NCBI RefSeq assembly: GCF_018977255.1
Contig: NW_024704748.1
Location: 26,660,001-26,724,000, forward strand
Direction: 5' to 3'
Source: Callorhinchus milii
Taxonomy: Eukaryota
Length of the DNA: 64,000 bases
Position 1 is the stretch's first letter, and every line of letters starts with the position of its first letter. This document shows, piece after piece, positions 33,201 through 53,800 of this stretch. Made by a program: the position numbers.

Positions 33201-35817
33201 ATAAATAGCAGCAACATCTTGATGTTTGGCCTAAAGTAATAATATCCCTTATATTTAAGTAGATGTTTGTTAGGTCAAGGTATTAAGGGATATGGGCCAA
33301 GGGCGGGTAACTGGACTTGAGGTACAGATCAACCATGATCTTATAGAGTGGTGGGACAGCCTTGTTGGGCTGAATAGCCTACTCCTGTTTCTATTTGGTA
33401 CAGGGCCATTCATGTCAGGAGGATGTCTCAGAGCCCTTCACAGGAAAATCTGCTGTATGCGCACAATTTTTCATCTAAAACGTACATTGAGCTGATTTCA
33501 TTTTATCAGTTTTCTGTTCTGGGGCATTGAAATCCGAGTGGGGGAAAAAAAAGAGAGATGGGATTCCCTCGAACTGTAAAAATATGCCACGTTTGCAAGG
33601 AATGAGAAGGAGACATTTCGACCTCTTCTCCAAGCCTCAGGGCAACTGGAGAATGATTGAGAATATCCTGGCGATAGTCAAGGAGCAGGGATAAGTACGG
33701 TATTGGACCTGGGTTTGATTCCCGGGCAGGGTAAAACATTGGGCAAGTTTCCTTACTCCACACGCCTCTGTTTATCTAGCAGTAAGTAGGAACTTGGTTG
33801 TTACTCGATTCGCGGATCACGTTTTGGGGGTAATAATCCCTTCAAAAGTAATAAAAAGAAGAATTTGATCACTCACAACTGTTGTGGGACACCGCTGTGT
33901 GCGATTGGTTACCACATTTCGCCCACAAAACATCCAGTCGATTCACTTTACACTATATGCTGTGAAGCGCTTTGAGACGTCTCAAGGACATAGTAATGTT
34001 CTACATCAAATGCGAGGATTATTATTATTGTTTCATGAGTGTTCCTTATCAAATTTCAGCCCCAAAGAATTGTTTTCCTCGCAGAAGAAGGGCATTCAGC
34101 CCAGCATGTCTGTGCTTCTCCGACCTGTCACTCTTTTAATTCTTTCTAAGTCACTCTTTTATTTTATTTATTTGTCCTACTTTCCAGCTCTGTATCTCTG
34201 TATCCACAAGTTGTGTGGTTTTAGCTGCTTAGACTCCAGTGTTGAGGTGTGTTGCGCATTCCATTCCAACAATCTATCTCTGGGATTTCCTCTGTTATCC
34301 TCTGATAGTGTTATTGTAATAATAATAATCCTTGCATTTGATGCAGCGCCTTATCTCGTCTTCGAGGCGTCTCAAAGCGCTTCACAGAACATACTGCAAA
34401 GTGGACTGACTGTGTATTTTGTGGGCAAAACAAAATAATAAATAAAGACTTTAATGTCTTAGGTTAGTCAACGTTTGGTGAAGGGCTAGATTTCTGTATG
34501 TGTGACTCACTCCCTCTCCCCTTTACTCGCACTTAATATTGAGCTGCTCTGAAGTACCATGTCTGGTGATCACTGTTGCTGTTAAACAGCACTTAGTCCC
34601 CGTGATGTGACCTGAGCTCACGTGTTCGAAACTCTTTCTAAAACCAAACACTGGGGTTGGAAAAAGTGCTGGTCAGAAGAACTGCAGTGTAAATGGTGCC
34701 TTGCCTTGGGGGAAAAAAATGCATCTCCACATACTTCAAACCAATCCGCGAGATCTCGGACCAGGCAAACCTTTTGATCGGAGCCGAAATCTTGTCGATT
34801 GATGAGCTGTCAACTGTAGCAGATGCAATTTGCGTCCCAAGACGCTTTTTTTCTGGCTCAAAGTACCCTTTTACGCTGCTGTTTTCCCACCAAGCATTCT
34901 TTTCAACTCCAAGGTTATGGACCAGTGTTACCTCTTGCTGGCTCAAGAACACAAAGCTAAATGGGTCTTCAATATGAGAGCGTCACGTAATTTACTTTGG
35001 CGGAATCTTCAGAGGGTCAAAAAGTATCTCTGCCCAACGTCCTCAATGAAGACCTGTATGTGAGTATGTGCGTCGTTAAGGACTGTACTGAACTTATTGC
35101 AAAACATGCAATTAATTAAGGAGCGATAAGATTCACATAAAGGCATTTTCTTTCAAAACAAGATTGAGAAGCTTAGCTTTGGGGAAAAAAAACAGAGGAT
35201 AGGAACCATCAAATAGTGAGTAGCTGATGCTCAGCTTGTGTCTGTAGATTTGAGGAGGAGAGAACGACTGAGGCAGGGAAGGAATTCAAGTCCTTCTGAA
35301 ATCTCTGAGAGTGAATGATTCTCAGTTTTTCAACACAGAGAGAGGATGCACGATCGTGGAAGTGTGTGAAAGACGAGGTATTTGGAGCAAATGGGAAACA
35401 AATGGGGAACTTCCAGAGGAGGAACTACCATCATAGAGATAGAGAAAGAAAGAGGCTGCAAACTAGTGATTAGAGATGTCTCGCTGATCCAATGATAAGG
35501 TTTTCTGCTATCCCAAGTCAAATCTGCCTTGTCAAATCTATTGAGTTCAAGCTGCAGAAATTCAGCTTAATCTGGAAAGCAAACTGGTTAGGCTGCCTCT
35601 GAATACTGAGTACAATCTGACCATCACAACTAAGGGGCCTTAGAAGCAACGCAAATGAGAGGAATAAGGGTAAACCTCAGTGTTCGTGTTGGGTTACGAG
35701 AGCAACAACAACTTGCACTTATATAGCGCCCTCCATGGCAGGGGAGCATCTCAGAGCGCTTAACAGTGGCAGAGCCTGACTAGAACGACGAGATAGGTAA
35801 GCAGGATACACCCCTCC

Positions 35818-35850
<33 letters not shown>

Positions 35851-50800: not shown

Positions 50801-53800
50801 ACAGGTTCCGGGAGCAAGTCCCAAATTCTCACCACCCCTTGCGTGAAGAAGTTCGTCCTAAACTCCCTTTAGATCTGCCACTGCCTATTATCTTACACAA
50901 TAATAATAATAATAATCCTTGCATTTGATACAGCGCCTCATTTTGGATTCATCTATTTTTGGAGTGGGATTCCCTCATGTCGTAATGAAATGCCCGACAG
51001 GTTATCAGAAGATTCCTTTCGGATTCCTTGACCAAGAAATACTGCGAAACCTAACCCCTTGTTAAATAGGAAGACGCCTCTCCAATCGACACTGCTGGAA
51101 GAGAATTATTGAAAGTAACTGTAGTCGCCGAAAACAGTGAGTTGCCCAAACTGTTCGGTGCTGCTGAAAATTAGCCGTCCATTTCTCATTGAAATACGCT
51201 GGAACTGGATCCTGGAACTGTATTTCATGTTTTTTTTTGCCCAGCCGGGTGTCTGACACACGCGGAAACCCATCACCGTTGCTTAAGAGTCTCCAAACCG
51301 AGCTGAGAATTCCACGCGTCCCACCTACACACGGAAACCCCAGAGAGAGATTGTTGGAATGGAATGCGCTCTCTCTCTCTCTCTCTCTGGAGGGGTGTAT
51401 CCTGCTTACCTATCTCGTCGTTCTAGTCAGGCTCTGCCACTGTTAAGCGCTCTGAGATGCTACCCTGCCATGGAGGGCGCTATATAAGTGCAAGTTGTTG
51501 TTGCTCTCGTAACCCAACACGAACACTGAGGTTTACCCTTATTCCTCTCATTTGCGTTGCTTCTAAGGCCCCTTAGTTGTGATGGTCAGACTGTACTCAG
51601 TATTCAGAGGCAGCCTAACCAGTTTGCTTTCCAGATTAAGCTGAATTTCTGCAGCTTGAACTCAATAGATTTGACAAGTAAGATTTGACTTGGGATAGCA
51701 GAAAACCTTATCATTGGATCAGCGAGACATCTCTAATCACTAGTTTGCAGCCTCTTTCTTTCTCTATCTCTATGATGGTAGTTCCTCCTCTGGAAGTTCC
51801 CCATTTGTTTCCCATTTGCTCCAAATACCTCGTCTTTCACACACTTCCACGATCGTGCATCCTCTCTCTGTGTTGAAAAACTGAGAATCATTCACTCTCA
51901 GAGATTTCAGAAGGACTTGAATTCCTTCCCTGCCTCAGTCGTTCTCTCCTCCTCAAATCTACAGACACAAGCTGAGCATCAGCTACTCACTATTTGATGG
52001 TTCCTATCCTCTGTTTTTTTTCCCCAAAGCTAAGCTTCTCAATCTTGTTTTGAAAGAAAATGCCTTTATGTGAATCTTATCGCTCCTTAATTAATTGCAT
52101 GTTTTGCAATAAGTTCAGTACAGTCCTTAACGACGCACATACTCACATCCAGGTCTTCATTGAGGACGTTGGGCAGAGATACTTTTTGACCCTCTGAAGA
52201 TTCCGCCAAAGTAAATTACGTGACGCTCTCATATTGAAGACCCATTTAGCTTTGTGTTCTTGAGCCAGCAAGAGGTAACACTGGTCCATAACCTTGGAGT
52301 TGAAAAGAATGCTTGGTGGGAAAACAGCAGCGTAAAAGGGTACTTTGAGCCAGAAAAAAAGCGTCTTGGGACGCAAATTGCATCTGCTACAGTTGACAGC
52401 TCATCAATCGACAAGATTTCGGCTCCGATCAAAAGGTTTGCCTGGTCCGAGATCTCGCGGATTGGTTTGAAGTATGTGGAGATGCATTTTTTTCCCCCAA
52501 GGCAAGGCACCATTTACACTGCAGTTCTTCTGACCAGCACTTTTTCCAACCCCAGTGTTTGGTTTTAGAAAGAGTTTCGAACACGTGAGCTCAGGTCACA
52601 TCACGGGGACTAAGTGCTGTTTAACAGCAACAGTGATCACCAGACATGGTACTTCAGAGCAGCTCAATATTAAGTGCGAGTAAAGGGGAGAGGGAGTGAG
52701 TCACACATACAGAAATCTAACCCTTCACCAAACGTTAACTAACCTAAGACATTAAAGTCTTTATTTATTATTTTGTTTTACCCACAAAATACACAGTCAG
52801 TCCACTTTGCAGTATGTTCTGTGAAGCGCTTTGAGACGCCTCAAAGACGAGATAAGGCGCTGCATCAAATGCAAGGATTATTATTATAATAACACTATCA
52901 GAGGATAACAGAGGAAATCCCAGAGATAGATTGTTGGAATGGAATGCGCAACACACCTCAACACTGGAGTCTAAGCAGCTAAAACCACACAACTTGTGGA
53001 TACAGAGATACAGAGCTGGAAAGTAGGACAAATAAATAAAATAAAAGAGTGACTTAGAAAGAGTTAAAAGAGTGACAGGTCGGAGAAGCACAGACATGCT
53101 GGGCTGAATGCCCTTCTTCTGCGAGGAAAACAATTCTTTGGGGCTGAAATTTGATAAGGAACACTCATGAAACAATAATAATAATCCTCGCATTTGATGT
53201 AGAGCATTACTATGTCCTTGAGACGTCTCAAAGCGCTTCATGGGACACTGCTAAGCGCAGGAATGGGACTGAATTGGAAGCTCTTTTTGAAAACCCAGCA
53301 CAGACAAGATGGGCCGAATGGCCTCCTTCTGTGCTGCTTAATTCTATGATTCTATGATTTATTTTGGTTTTCCTGAAAATCAATCATTCACCAATCTTTC
53401 CATCAGGATGCATCTAACAAGAAAATGCAGTTGAGAGAGCATTTTCTGGCCAGCTAACTGTTAAGGGTTAACAAACTGAGTGGGAAGAAGAACAATAACA
53501 ACAGCGTTTATATAACATCCCTCTCACAGGATAGTGTCCCAGAGAACTCAAGAAATTACAGTCTTAACAATGTTAAGATAAAGCAATTTGATGTTGATTT
53601 CCCAAGGTTGCACTGCAAGTGTGAAATTCTGGTCAAACCAACAAATATGTAACAATAATAATCCTTGCATTTGAGATAGAGCCTTATCACGTCTTCGAGA
53701 CGTCTCAAAGCGCTTCACAGGATATACTGTAAAGTGAATTGACTGTATATTTTGTGGGCGTATCACAGCAGCCAATTGTGCACAGCAGCGTCCCACAAAC

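What the first reader, a model, noticed from the sequence alone, without database searches (positions are those of the whole stretch)
33963..53240. CASP7 catalytic exons sit in a potentially invertible 5 kb cassette between two head-on 7.1 kb half-genes
Seen: the arms 33963-41096 and 46113-53240 are near-identical inverted repeats. The inner breakpoint lies in the intron between the SHG exon and the QACRG exon, so the spacer (41097-46112) holds exactly the catalytic-Cys exon, the last exon and the 3'UTR. Known: long near-identical inverted repeats mediate inversion of the intervening DNA by non-allelic homologous recombination. Inference: a flip would cut the canonical MEDTD-start gene off from its Cys exon and complete the minus-strand copy, whose only possible start is the candidate alternative exon. 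This would be a germline or somatic orientation switch between two caspase-7 forms.
Basis: partly seen in the sequence, partly recalled or inferred. Interest (0 to 1): 0.78.

Follow-up and report, generated by a model that had tools for sequence, protein, structure and literature searches.

The report
Inverted partial copy beside caspase-7
A 7.1 kb piece of a vertebrate caspase-7 gene (three middle exons) is repeated upside-down just after the gene, an arrangement of a known kind that could let the gene's last two exons flip and break it, though nothing here shows a working switch.

Summary
Arms 33963-41096 and 46113-53240 are inverted copies, identical in 7058 of 7096 aligned non-N columns, with 13 indels and sharp ends. 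They flank a unique 5016-bp spacer.

The plus strand carries a complete six-coding-exon caspase-7 gene. Exons 2-4 (including SHG) lie in arm A. Exon 5 (ACRG), exon 6 and 3.5 kb after the stop lie in the spacer. Arm B holds exact minus-strand copies of exons 2-4 and has no exon 1 and no CpG island.

Arm A is the native copy, because a SINE runs unbroken across its outer end. Arm B is derived and both its junctions are blunt.

My best reading is a recent inverted segmental duplication that left a promoter-less caspase-7 fragment. It belongs to the same kind as F8 int22h, IDS/IDS2 and SORD/SORD2P. Recombination between the arms would flip the spacer and most likely give a null allele.

A switch between two caspase-7 forms has no support. 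The proposed alternative first exon is one of four chance-level candidates, and no recombinase domain was found.

An assembly artefact cannot be excluded without reads. The contig is not human.

The parts
33963..41096 (+). Arm A, the native copy. It runs from 3816 nt upstream of exon 2 (inside intron 1) to 561 nt into intron 4 and carries caspase-7 coding exons 2-4.
   Evidence: A SINE copy at 33705-34031 runs unbroken across the outer boundary, and the inner boundary continues into native intron 4 and exon 5.
46113..53240 (-). Arm B, the derived inverted copy of arm A. It is a caspase-7 fragment lacking both its 5' and 3' ends, with no exon 1 and no CpG island.
   Evidence: It holds only the last ~69 bp of the SINE that is whole at arm A's outer end.
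41097..46112 (+). Unique spacer: the rest of intron 4, exon 5, intron 5, exon 6 and 3522 bp after the stop codon. The end of the 3'UTR is unknown; poly(A)-signal-like hexamers lie at 43222, 43250, 44687, 45700, 45864 and 46084.
25277..25389 (+). First coding exon of caspase-7 (ATG at 25277, 113 nt, donor GTGAGA, ends in phase 2). It lies outside the repeat and has one copy only.
37779..37933 (+). Coding exon 2 (155 nt). It encodes the N-terminal peptide and the start of the protease domain and contains two in-frame ATG codons.
   Evidence: PDB search: best hits are human caspase-7 chains, 38 bits.
39450..39578 (+). Coding exon 3 (129 nt)
   Evidence: Pfam Peptidase_C14 profile positions 18-57, 36.7 bits.
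40360..40535 (+). Coding exon 4 (176 nt), with the catalytic-His motif SHG; it ends ...KPKLFFIQ
   Evidence: Pfam Peptidase_C14 positions 61-125. PDB caspase-7 82 bits, 39 of 57 residues identical to the human chain.
41648..41783 (+). Coding exon 5 (136 nt), which starts with ACRG (catalytic Cys). Single copy, in the spacer.
   Evidence: Pfam positions 126-169.
42358..42590 (+). Coding exon 6 (last exon, stop TAA at 42588-42590). Single copy, in the spacer.
   Evidence: Pfam positions 171-233. PDB human caspase-7 121 bits against 92-99 bits for caspase-3 chains; 59 of 75 residues identical.
49279..49433 (-). Copy of exon 2 in arm B, 155 of 155 bases identical
47636..47764 (-). Copy of exon 3 in arm B, 129 of 129 bases identical
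46679..46854 (-). Copy of exon 4 in arm B, 176 of 176 bases identical. A single N at 46857 lies 3 nt outside its acceptor and was left as N.
34917..35059 (+). Its copy in arm B lies at about 52147-52289 (-) and carries the T/G difference (35057 versus 52149). I judge it chance-level.
46112..46113 (.). New junction J1 (spacer | arm B). It is blunt, with no shared bases seen between the two contexts.
53240..53241 (.). New junction J2 (arm B | right flank). It is blunt and cuts a SINE copy 69 bp from its 3' end.
43615..43655 (+). A 41-bp direct copy (40 of 41 bases) of exon 6 positions 62-102, about 1 kb after the stop and abutting a truncated SINE. It is a second small rearrangement scar in the same locus.

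Best explanation
This is a recent inverted segmental duplication, a small palindrome. A 7.1 kb block of the caspase-7 gene, running from inside intron 1 through exons 2-4 into intron 4, was copied and inserted in reverse orientation 3.5 kb beyond the stop codon. Arm A remains part of an intact six-coding-exon gene. Arm B is a promoter-less gene fragment lacking exon 1 and exons 5-6, i.e. an unprocessed partial pseudogene. Because the arms are 99.5% identical and inverted, they are a substrate for arm-to-arm gene conversion and for intrachromatid non-allelic homologous recombination. A crossover would invert the spacer together with exons 5-6, splitting the canonical gene after exon 4. Such a flip is expected to be an occasional germline (perhaps also somatic) structural variant and most likely a loss-of-function allele. 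It is not expected to be a regulated switch. Shown here: the repeat, its ends, the gene model, the exon content of arms and spacer, and which copy is native. Inferred: that both arms exist in the organism, that the duplication is young, that inversion happens, and that a flip is a null.
For: Repeat and boundaries.

Gene model: all five introns have GT-AG boundaries, and the exon lengths sum to 942 nt, i.e. 313 codons plus a stop.

Gene identity: 4 of 6 exon pieces match Pfam Peptidase_C14, in profile order 18-57, 61-125, 126-169, 171-233. The last exon scores best against caspase-7 chains (121 bits, versus 92-99 bits for caspase-3).

Which copy is native: the SINE copy at 33705-34031 is continuous across arm A's outer end and is cut at arm B's end. 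Arm A's inner end continues into native intron 4.

The differences look like real germline mutations and not consensus errors. There are 21 transitions to 17 transversions. Eight of the 21 transitions are in CpG context, while CpG sites make up about 5.6% of arm bases. The indels include 8-, 12- and 17-bp tandem duplications, and only two or three are homopolymer length changes.

Structure against a mis-join: the spacer and the right flank are unique, there is no N run at or between the junctions, and the reverse complement of 53241-64000 resembles 1-33962 only through SINE copies of at most 89% identity. Simple haplotype mis-joins or a heterozygous inversion would not create both new junctions (inference from the adjacency of segments).

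Other points: a 1139-bp stretch without any difference (37462-38601; P = 0.007 under uniform spacing) fits a gene-conversion tract. A second scar, the 41-bp exon-6 fragment at 43615-43655, shows the locus has rearranged before.

Known kind: gene-pseudogene pairs in inverted orientation undergo inversions (IDS/IDS2, F8 int22h, SORD/SORD2P; abstract and introduction of PMC12632684). Spacer orientation differed in about 50% of comparisons between primate species for X-chromosome palindromes (passage in PMC8327919).
Against: No reads, depth or k-mer data can be consulted, so the existence of both arms in one haplotype is not shown.

The divergence (0.53% substitutions) is also what two alleles of a heterozygous individual could show.

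The first and last differences lie only 36 and 43 bp from the two arm ends (joint probability 0.058 under uniform spacing). A retained haplotype piece trimmed back to where the alleles start to differ might look like this.

The outer end falls inside a SINE, a place where contigs often break.

The window has N runs elsewhere (10538-10763, 22712-23019, 23039-23206) and two single Ns inside the arms, so the assembly is not flawless.

No orthologous locus from another species could be fetched to show the ancestral state. The test of whether spacer end and right flank were once adjacent was inconclusive.

No microhomology or target-site duplication marks the junctions, so the mechanism of formation is open.
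Confidence: 0.6

Rival explanations
1. Assembly artefact. Only one arm exists. Arm B is the other haplotype's copy of arm A (a false 'heterotype' duplication) or a chimeric join, placed upside-down after the gene during assembly or gap filling.
For: The arm divergence of 0.53% with a CpG-transition signature fits allelic variation as well as paralogy. The first and last differences lie 36 and 43 bp from the arm ends (joint P = 0.058). The outer end lies inside a SINE. The window has gaps and single Ns. False duplications, mostly of the haplotype kind, affected 4-16% of sequence in older vertebrate assemblies, and some palindromic chimeric-read artefacts of 7-17 kb persisted in newer ones (passages read in PMC9516828).
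Against: PMC9516828 lists three signatures: half depth, a gap or depth gap between the copies, and discordant pairs. The only one visible in sequence, a gap between the copies, is absent: there is no N run in 41097-46112 or at either junction. Missed-adapter palindromic reads give arms with no unique spacer (inference); here 5016 bp of unique sequence containing essential exons separates the arms. The right flank 53241-64000 is unique and is not a mirror of the left flank. A 7.1 kb haplotype piece containing identical stretches of up to 1139 bp would have to be kept separate and then joined without gaps at both ends. A heterozygous simple inversion cannot create both junctions (inference).
Confidence: 0.28
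2. One reading: a functional germline or somatic orientation switch. Flipping the spacer would alternate between the canonical MEDTD-start caspase-7 and a second form started from an alternative first exon inside the arm.
For: The geometry allows it. An ATG-open frame (34917 or 35046 to 35059) with a GTGAGT donor in the right phase exists in both arms. The copies of exons 2-4 in arm B are 100% intact: 0 differences in 460 coding bases where 3.2 were expected, P = 0.04. One preprint reports about 1.8% recombinant molecules in both sperm and cheek cells for the FLNA/EMD inverted repeats (abstract of 10.1101/2020.04.20.051185).
Against: The candidate exon is one of 4 phase-2 candidates among 11 GTRAG donor-like sites, and one of 2 among 5 GTRAGT sites, so it is at chance level. 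It matches no family. No window in the arms passed my CpG-island filter (observed/expected CpG above 0.6 and G+C above 0.5); the windows that passed lie at 21751-24500, upstream of exon 1. None of the 10 arm or spacer ORFs reached a Pfam cut-off, so no recombinase was seen. Because the arms are near-identical, any promoter in arm B also sits in arm A, so both forms could be made without a flip. Known analogues (F8, IDS, SORD) produce null alleles (PMC12632684). The identical exons all lie within, or close to, difference-poor stretches, so the lack of coding differences need not mean selection on arm B.
Confidence: 0.03
3. RNA-level role. Read-through from caspase-7, or transcription from the right flank, carries arm B into RNA. 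This gives antisense or a 7 kb hairpin with arm A sequence, which could feed small-RNA or editing pathways that damp caspase-7.
For: This rests on geometry only. Arm B begins 3.5 kb after the stop and is convergent with the gene. CpG-rich windows exist in the right flank at 56251-57000 and 58001-58500. Hairpin-derived endogenous small RNAs from inverted gene or pseudogene duplicates are known in animals (recalled, not checked here).
Against: There are no expression data. Poly(A)-signal-like hexamers occur six times before arm B. Rfam finds only tRNA-like SINE heads in the arms.
Confidence: 0.04

Closest known systems
F8 intron-22 (int22h) inversion of human haemophilia A
   Same: One copy of the repeat lies inside the gene and an inverted copy lies outside it. 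Recombination between them splits the gene into a 5' part and a 3' part. (Named as a documented example in the introduction of PMC12632684; cited as a pathogenic case in PMC8327919.)
   Different: In F8 the repeat lies wholly within one intron and the partner copies lie far away (recalled). Here the repeat carries three coding exons, the partner is only 5 kb away, and the flipped block is just the last two exons. No inverted allele has been observed here.
Gene/unprocessed-pseudogene pairs in inverted orientation (IDS/IDS2, SORD/SORD2P; 411 such human pairs listed in PMC12632684)
   Same: A partial copy that keeps exon-intron structure lies near its parent gene in opposite orientation, which is 'permissive for inversions'. 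Such inversions inactivate the parent gene. At least 3.6% of healthy people carry one (abstract of PMC12632684).
   Different: This is a different gene and a non-human vertebrate. The identity here is very high (99.5%), and the copy lies immediately behind the gene's own 3' end, so the invertible segment is part of the gene itself. Searches found no paper on caspase-7: one search found 1 paper, which was irrelevant, and one search found 0.
Sex-chromosome palindromes (human X P24 with FLNA/EMD, Y P6)
   Same: Two inverted arms of more than 99% identity flank a unique spacer. [quoted passage not shown] The P24 spacer is inverted in 18% of European X chromosomes, and spacer orientation differed in about 50% of between-species comparisons (PMC8327919 passages). 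The P6 inversion rate is about 1.4-1.7e-5 per generation, with conversion far more frequent (PMC3723533 passages).
   Different: Those arms are larger (recalled: 9 kb up to over 1 Mb) and hold whole genes, often testis gene families, so flips are mostly harmless. Here the arm boundary cuts through a gene, so a flip breaks it. The chromosome type here is unknown.
Programmed DNA inversion switches (bacterial invertible promoters, shufflons; site-specific recombinases)
   Same: An invertible segment lies between inverted repeats, and its orientation decides which coding sequence is completed.
   Different: Those use short specific sites and a dedicated recombinase (recalled). Here the repeats are 7.1 kb of ordinary gene sequence, and none of the 10 ORFs tested shows any recombinase or transposase domain. 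The resemblance is in layout only.

Membership tests
Caspase-7 (effector caspase, peptidase family C14) | Peptidase_C14 domain covered in order by the exons | tested here: met
   4 of 6 exon pieces match PF00656 above the 21.4-bit cut-off (36.7, 58.9, 28.7, 65.2 bits), at profile positions 18-57, 61-125, 126-169 and 171-233 of 233. Exon 1 and exon 2 had no hit above cut-off.
Caspase-7 (effector caspase, peptidase family C14) | Catalytic His (SHG) and Cys (QACRG) motifs (motif names recalled) | tested here: met
   SHG at 40410-40418 in exon 4. Q|ACRG is split across the exon 4/5 junction (Q ends exon 4 at 40535, ACRG at 41648-41659). The joined protein was not built.
Caspase-7 (effector caspase, peptidase family C14) | Closer to caspase-7 than to caspase-3 or caspase-6 | tested here: met
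   Exon 6: caspase-7 chains 121 bits, zebrafish caspase-3a 99, human caspase-3 92. Exon 2: caspase-7 38 bits against caspase-3a 26.5. Exon 4 does not discriminate: the best hit is a reconstructed ancestral caspase-3/6/7 chain (91 bits), then caspase-7 (82) and caspase-3 (80). No phylogeny was made. An NRAP-like neighbour (LIM exon at 10150-10332, minus strand; 33 bits) fits the NRAP-CASP7 synteny I recall from vertebrates.
Inverted segmental duplication / palindrome | Two copies of at least 1 kb and at least 90% identity in inverted orientation (thresholds recalled) | tested here: met
   7134 and 7128 bp, 99.46% identity in aligned non-N columns, reverse-complement orientation.
Inverted segmental duplication / palindrome | Unique spacer between the arms | tested here: met
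   5016 bp. No internal inverted repeat of 200 nt or more was reported. The only multi-copy content is interspersed SINEs, which cover 28% of spacer bases in repeats of three or more copies.
Inverted segmental duplication / palindrome | Both copies really present in one haplotype (normal read depth, reads spanning the junctions) | not testable with these tools
   No reads or second assembly are available. Indirect sequence arguments lean towards real, with one mild counter-signal.
NAHR-mediated polymorphic or recurrent inversion (F8 / IDS / SORD type) | Inverted homologous copies, one of them inside or overlapping the gene | tested here: met
   Arm A spans intron 1 to intron 4 of the gene, and arm B lies 3.5 kb after the stop in inverted orientation. 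The longest uninterrupted identity is 1139 bp.
NAHR-mediated polymorphic or recurrent inversion (F8 / IDS / SORD type) | Both orientations of the intervening segment observed | not testable with these tools
   Only one assembled orientation is available, the one with the intact gene.
Programmed DNA-inversion switch | A dedicated site-specific recombinase encoded at or near the invertible segment | tested here: not met
   None of the 10 ORFs from arm A and the spacer reached a Pfam cut-off; there were two sub-threshold chance hits. Of the 10 flank ORFs, only a LIM domain reached its cut-off; a Nebulin repeat hit (18.6 bits) fell below its 20.1-bit cut-off. Short exons of a spliced gene could be missed.
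Programmed DNA-inversion switch | Each orientation yields an expressed product | not testable with these tools
   No RNA data. The arms have no CpG island, and the candidate first exon is at chance level.

The most novel reading that the evidence does not exclude
Both arms are real and the 5 kb cassette with the catalytic-Cys exon flips at appreciable frequency in germline or soma. In addition, a promoter inside the arm (or in the right flank) drives the minus-strand copy. Orientation would then decide between full-length caspase-7 and a form with a different or missing N-terminal peptide, or between caspase-7 'on' and 'off' in cell lineages. That would be a recombination-based toggle on an executioner caspase in a vertebrate.
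Probability: 0.03. Interest if true: 0.8.

Novelty: new member of a known kind. Interest (0 to 1): 0.3.

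Why it matters
If the duplication is real, this species carries a built-in fragile arrangement at an executioner-caspase gene. A single homologous exchange would remove the catalytic cysteine exon from the transcript, so natural caspase-7-null or mosaic individuals may exist. The predicted inversion would be copy-number neutral and hard to see with short reads. This is the same blind spot now being recognised for human gene-pseudogene inversions (PMC12632684). 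It also matters for annotation: arm B would be called a second, partial 'caspase-7-like' gene, inflating gene counts, and if it is an artefact it should be purged. It does not open a long-standing question, and the mechanism is textbook NAHR.

Tried and rejected
1. Fold-back or haplotig mirror. I looked for homology between the reverse complement of 53241-64000 and 1-33962. Only SINE-level matches of at most 89% turned up, so this was rejected as an explanation of the right flank.

2. Were spacer end and right flank once adjacent inside one repeat element? The repeat at the spacer end stops about 12 bp before the junction in all 4 other copies, and the right flank matches none of them. Inconclusive.

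3. A diverged interspersed repeat is shared by arm B's inner end (46172-46302) and the right flank (53260-53399), at 69% over 140 bp. That is too diverged to have mediated anything, so I treat it as coincidence.

4. Identity of the right flank. None of the 7 ORFs tested matched Pfam, and the protein atlas gave no usable hit for the 151-aa ORF at 59653-60105. Whether this is the native downstream region stays open.

5. Rfam scan of the whole window found 12 matches, all tRNA-like SINE heads. ARAGORN found 10 tRNA-like sites, mostly Ala. No structured RNA gene lies in the arms or spacer.

6. Giant transposon with long terminal repeats: rejected. The arms are native gene sequence and no transposase domain was found.

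7. Literature. 'caspase-7' plus 'inverted duplication' gave 1 paper, irrelevant. 'caspase-7' plus 'pseudogene' plus 'partial duplication' gave 0 papers.

8. A paper look-up failed because one search term was too short. It was not repeated, because the abstract already gave what was needed.

Not done or unavailable:
- The exons were searched one by one.
- The two single-N positions were left as N and set aside from all counts.
- No homologue searches were possible in the large protein sets or in metagenome or viral contigs (closed). No eukaryotic genome collection was on hand, so orthologous loci, the species, and the age of the duplication relative to speciation stayed unchecked.
- Supplementary files of the papers were not seen.

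Full report
**1. The observation**

- The repeat finder on 30000-57000 gives nine collinear inverted pieces from 33963 to 41096 and from 46113 to 53240, each 99-100% complementary.
- blastn joins them into one alignment of 7164 columns at 98.5%, gaps included.
- A global alignment has 7058 of 7096 non-N columns identical (99.46%). The differences are 38 substitutions and 13 indels totalling 66 bases.
- Identity ends abruptly at all four ends, and beyond them the flanks match at random level.
- The spacer 41097-46112 is 5016 bp and unique apart from interspersed SINEs.
- No other repeat in the window comes close. The next best is a 295-bp SINE pair at 97.3% and a GC-rich tandem array at 16550-17407.
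- The window has N runs at 10538-10763, 22712-23019 and 23039-23206, and single Ns at 39435 and 46857. These were left as N, and the two single-N columns were set aside from every count.

**2. The gene**

The plus strand carries a complete caspase-7 gene with six coding exons.

| Exon | Coordinates | Notes |
|---|---|---|
| 1 | 25277-25389 | ATG at 25277 |
| 2 | 37779-37933 | |
| 3 | 39450-39578 | |
| 4 | 40360-40535 | SHG; ends ...KPKLFFIQ |
| 5 | 41648-41783 | begins ACRG |
| 6 | 42358-42590 | TAA at 42588-42590 |

- All five introns have GT-AG boundaries and compatible phases. The exon lengths sum to 942 nt.
- I searched the exons one at a time.
- In Pfam, 4 of the 6 pieces match Peptidase_C14 above cut-off, at profile positions 18-57, 61-125, 126-169 and 171-233. 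Exon 1 had only a sub-threshold, irrelevant hit and exon 2 had none.
- Against solved structures, exon 6 is closest to human caspase-7 (121 bits, 59 of 75 residues identical), ahead of zebrafish caspase-3a (99 bits) and human caspase-3 (92 bits).
- Exon 2 also prefers caspase-7 (38 bits against 26.5).
- Exon 4 does not discriminate (39 of 57 identical to human caspase-7).
- These identities show the contig is not human. The dense tRNA-Ala-derived SINE family suggests a non-mammalian vertebrate (my inference). I did not try to name the species.
- Upstream on the minus strand lie a LIM-domain exon (10150-10332, 33 bits) and a weak nebulin repeat (2082-2345, 18.6 bits, below the 20.1-bit cut-off). 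This fits the NRAP-CASP7 neighbourhood that I recall from vertebrates.
- Windows passing my CpG-island filter lie at 21751-24500, upstream of exon 1. None lies in the arms.

**3. How the repeat cuts the gene**

- Arm A starts 3816 nt before exon 2, inside the 12.4 kb intron 1, and ends 561 nt into intron 4.
- The spacer therefore holds the rest of intron 4, exon 5 with the catalytic Cys, intron 5, exon 6 and 3522 bp after the stop. There are six poly(A)-signal-like hexamers; the true 3'UTR end is unknown.
- Arm B holds minus-strand copies of exon 2 (49279-49433), exon 3 (47636-47764) and exon 4 (46679-46854). Each is 100% identical to the original.
- Exon 1, exon 5 and exon 6 are single-copy. 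The one exception is a 41-bp fragment of exon 6 (40 of 41 bases) at 43615-43655, next to a truncated SINE.
The one caveat is that the 'half-genes' lack the ATG exon.

**4. Which arm is the original**

- A SINE copy at 33705-34031 runs unbroken across arm A's outer end, while arm B contains only its last ~69 bp.
- Arm A's inner end continues into native intron sequence and exon 5.
- So arm A is native and arm B is the derived copy. It has two new junctions, 46112|46113 and 53240|53241.
- Both junctions are blunt. I saw no shared bases, no target-site duplication and no extended lower-identity homology.
- I could not show that the spacer end and the right flank were once adjacent.
- A 69%-identical interspersed repeat shared by arm B's inner end and the right flank looks like coincidence.

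**5. Nature of the differences**

- Of 38 substitutions, 21 are transitions and 17 are transversions. Six of the 38 (1 transition, 5 transversions) sit in a 270-bp patch of complex indels at 39053-39322.
- Eight of the 21 transitions are in CpG context, although CpG sites make up only about 5.6% of arm bases.
- The indels are mostly microsatellite changes or 8-17 bp tandem duplications, with only two or three homopolymer length changes.
- These are real germline mutations and not consensus noise. They would look the same whether the two arms are paralogues or alleles.
- The spacing of differences is uneven (variance/mean 2.6 per 500 bp). One stretch of 1139 bp, 37462-38601, has no difference at all (P = 0.007 under uniform spacing). 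A gene-conversion tract would explain this.
- No difference falls in the 460 coding bases, where 3.2 were expected (P = 0.04). All three exons lie in or near difference-poor stretches, so I do not read this as selection on arm B.
- At mutation rates I recall for vertebrates (about 1 to 2.5e-9 per site per year), 0.53% divergence means roughly one to three million years. That is an upper bound if conversion is active.

**6. Real duplication or assembly artefact?**

This cannot be settled without reads.

For a real duplication:
- The arms are separated by 5 kb of unique, essential gene sequence with no N run between them or at either junction.
- The right flank is unique and does not mirror the left flank.
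- A heterozygous simple inversion or a bubble traversed twice would not produce both new junctions. A missed-adapter palindromic read would give no unique spacer. Both are inferences.
- The 41-bp exon-6 scar shows the locus has rearranged independently.
- PMC9516828 lists the marks of false duplications as half depth, an assembly or depth gap between the copies, discordant read pairs and 1-copy k-mers (passages read). The only one visible in sequence, the gap, is absent.

For an artefact:
- The divergence is in the range of heterozygosity.
- The outer end lies in a SINE.
- The first and last differences lie 36 and 43 bp from the arm ends (joint P = 0.058).
- The assembly has gaps nearby.

I put about 0.6 on a real duplication and about 0.28 on an artefact.

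**7. What it does**

If real, the locus is a small palindrome whose arm boundary cuts through a gene.

What is known about such structures:
- Intrachromatid NAHR between palindrome arms inverts the spacer. Spacer orientation differed in about half of the between-species comparisons of primate X palindromes. The FLNA/EMD spacer is inverted in 18% of European X chromosomes. [quoted passage not shown]
- In Y palindrome P6, conversion greatly outnumbers inversion (56 events against 3), and the inversion rate is about 1.4-1.7e-5 per generation (passages in PMC3723533).
- Inversions mediated by inverted repeats recur often: 11 of the 16 that could be analysed showed signs of recurrence (passages in PMC3961182).
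- The closest analogues are gene/partial-pseudogene pairs in inverted orientation: IDS/IDS2, F8 int22h and SORD/SORD2P. There the inversion inactivates the gene (abstract and introduction of PMC12632684).

Applied here:
- A crossover anywhere in the arms would leave promoter plus exons 1-4 facing the reversed 3' region.
- It would also place exons 5-6 behind the promoter-less copies of exons 2-4.
- The expected result is a caspase-7 null allele. It is copy-number neutral and hard to detect with short reads.
- I recall that caspase-7-deficient mice are viable, so such an allele could segregate. This was not checked here.

**8. The 'switch between two forms'**

- The proposed alternative first exon exists as sequence in both arms. 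An open frame runs from ATG 34917 or ATG 35046 to 35059, followed by GTGAGT, in phase 2, which fits exon 2.
- It is not distinctive. In 33963-37778, 2 of 5 GTRAGT sites and 4 of 11 GTRAG sites give a phase-2 ATG-open frame.
- Its translation matches no family.
- It is not the 'only possible start': exon 2 has two in-frame ATG codons just ahead of the protease domain.
- The arms have no CpG island.
- None of the 10 arm or spacer ORFs reaches a Pfam cut-off, so no recombinase or transposase was seen.
- Rfam finds only SINE heads.
- Because the arms are near-identical, any internal promoter is already present upstream of the intact gene. A flip is not needed to make a second form.
- I give the regulated-switch reading about 3%, and about 4% to an RNA-level role (antisense or hairpin through read-through).

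**9. Novelty**

- I found nothing in print on a caspase-7 partial inverted duplicate. Subscription journals and supplementary files were not covered.
- The kind of structure and its mechanism are well known. I file this as a new member of a known kind, of modest interest, and useful mainly as an annotation warning and as a testable prediction of a natural caspase-7-null inversion allele.

**10. What stayed unchecked**

- Read support, depth and k-mer multiplicity.
- Orientation in other individuals.
- Any RNA evidence.
- Orthologous loci in other species.
- The identity of the right flank. None of its 7 ORFs matched Pfam and the atlas search gave nothing.
- The letters at the N positions. One of them lies 3 nt outside the acceptor of the exon-4 copy in arm B.

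Noticed in passing
window 43615-43655 (+): A 41-bp direct copy (40 of 41 bases) of the middle of the last caspase-7 exon (42419-42459) sits about 1 kb after the stop codon, fused to a truncated SINE. It looks like a templated-insertion scar and shows the locus has rearranged more than once.
   Followed up: partly
window-wide, e.g. 32405-32800, 41219-41535, 63374-63951: A tRNA-Ala-derived SINE family of about 300-390 bp occurs in dozens of copies on both strands. About 22% of window bases lie in repeats of three or more copies. One young pair, 21112-21406 and 41242-41535, is 97% identical. A SINE head (25153-25225, minus strand) lies about 50 bp upstream of the caspase-7 ATG (25277).
   Followed up: partly
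window 10150-10332 (-), 2082-2345 (-), 2941-3444 (-), 7712-7894 (-): A LIM-domain exon (Pfam 33 bits) and nebulin-repeat-like ORFs lie on the minus strand upstream. They look like an NRAP-type gene arranged head-to-head with caspase-7, as I recall for vertebrates.
   Followed up: partly
window 16550-17407: A very GC-rich (0.79-0.83) tandem array with shifted self-matches at about 36-bp steps, lying between the NRAP-like gene and caspase-7. Its function is unknown.
   Followed up: no
window 21751-24500, with N runs 22712-23019 and 23039-23206: A CpG-rich region (observed/expected up to 1.1) lies upstream of the ATG exon and is probably the caspase-7 promoter and 5'UTR exon. It is interrupted by two N runs 19 bp apart. 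An acceptor-like site just before the ATG (about 25264) suggests an untranslated exon further upstream.
   Followed up: no
window 39053-39322 versus 47894-48160: A 270-bp patch in intron 2 concentrates 6 of the 13 indels (2-17 bp, several of them tandem duplications) and 6 of the 38 substitutions between the arms. It is a local hypervariable, minisatellite-like spot.
   Followed up: no
window 56251-57000 and 58001-58500; ORF 59653-60105 (+): The right flank has CpG-rich windows and a 151-aa open frame. The frame has no Pfam match and no atlas look-alike. It could be the start of the next gene or a decayed mobile element.
   Followed up: partly
window 46172-46302 and 53260-53399 (also 40943-41037, minus strand): Diverged copies (69-75%) of another interspersed repeat lie 59 bp inside arm B's inner end and 20 bp inside the right flank, in the same orientation. 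This is probably coincidence, but both new junctions lie next to this family.
   Followed up: partly
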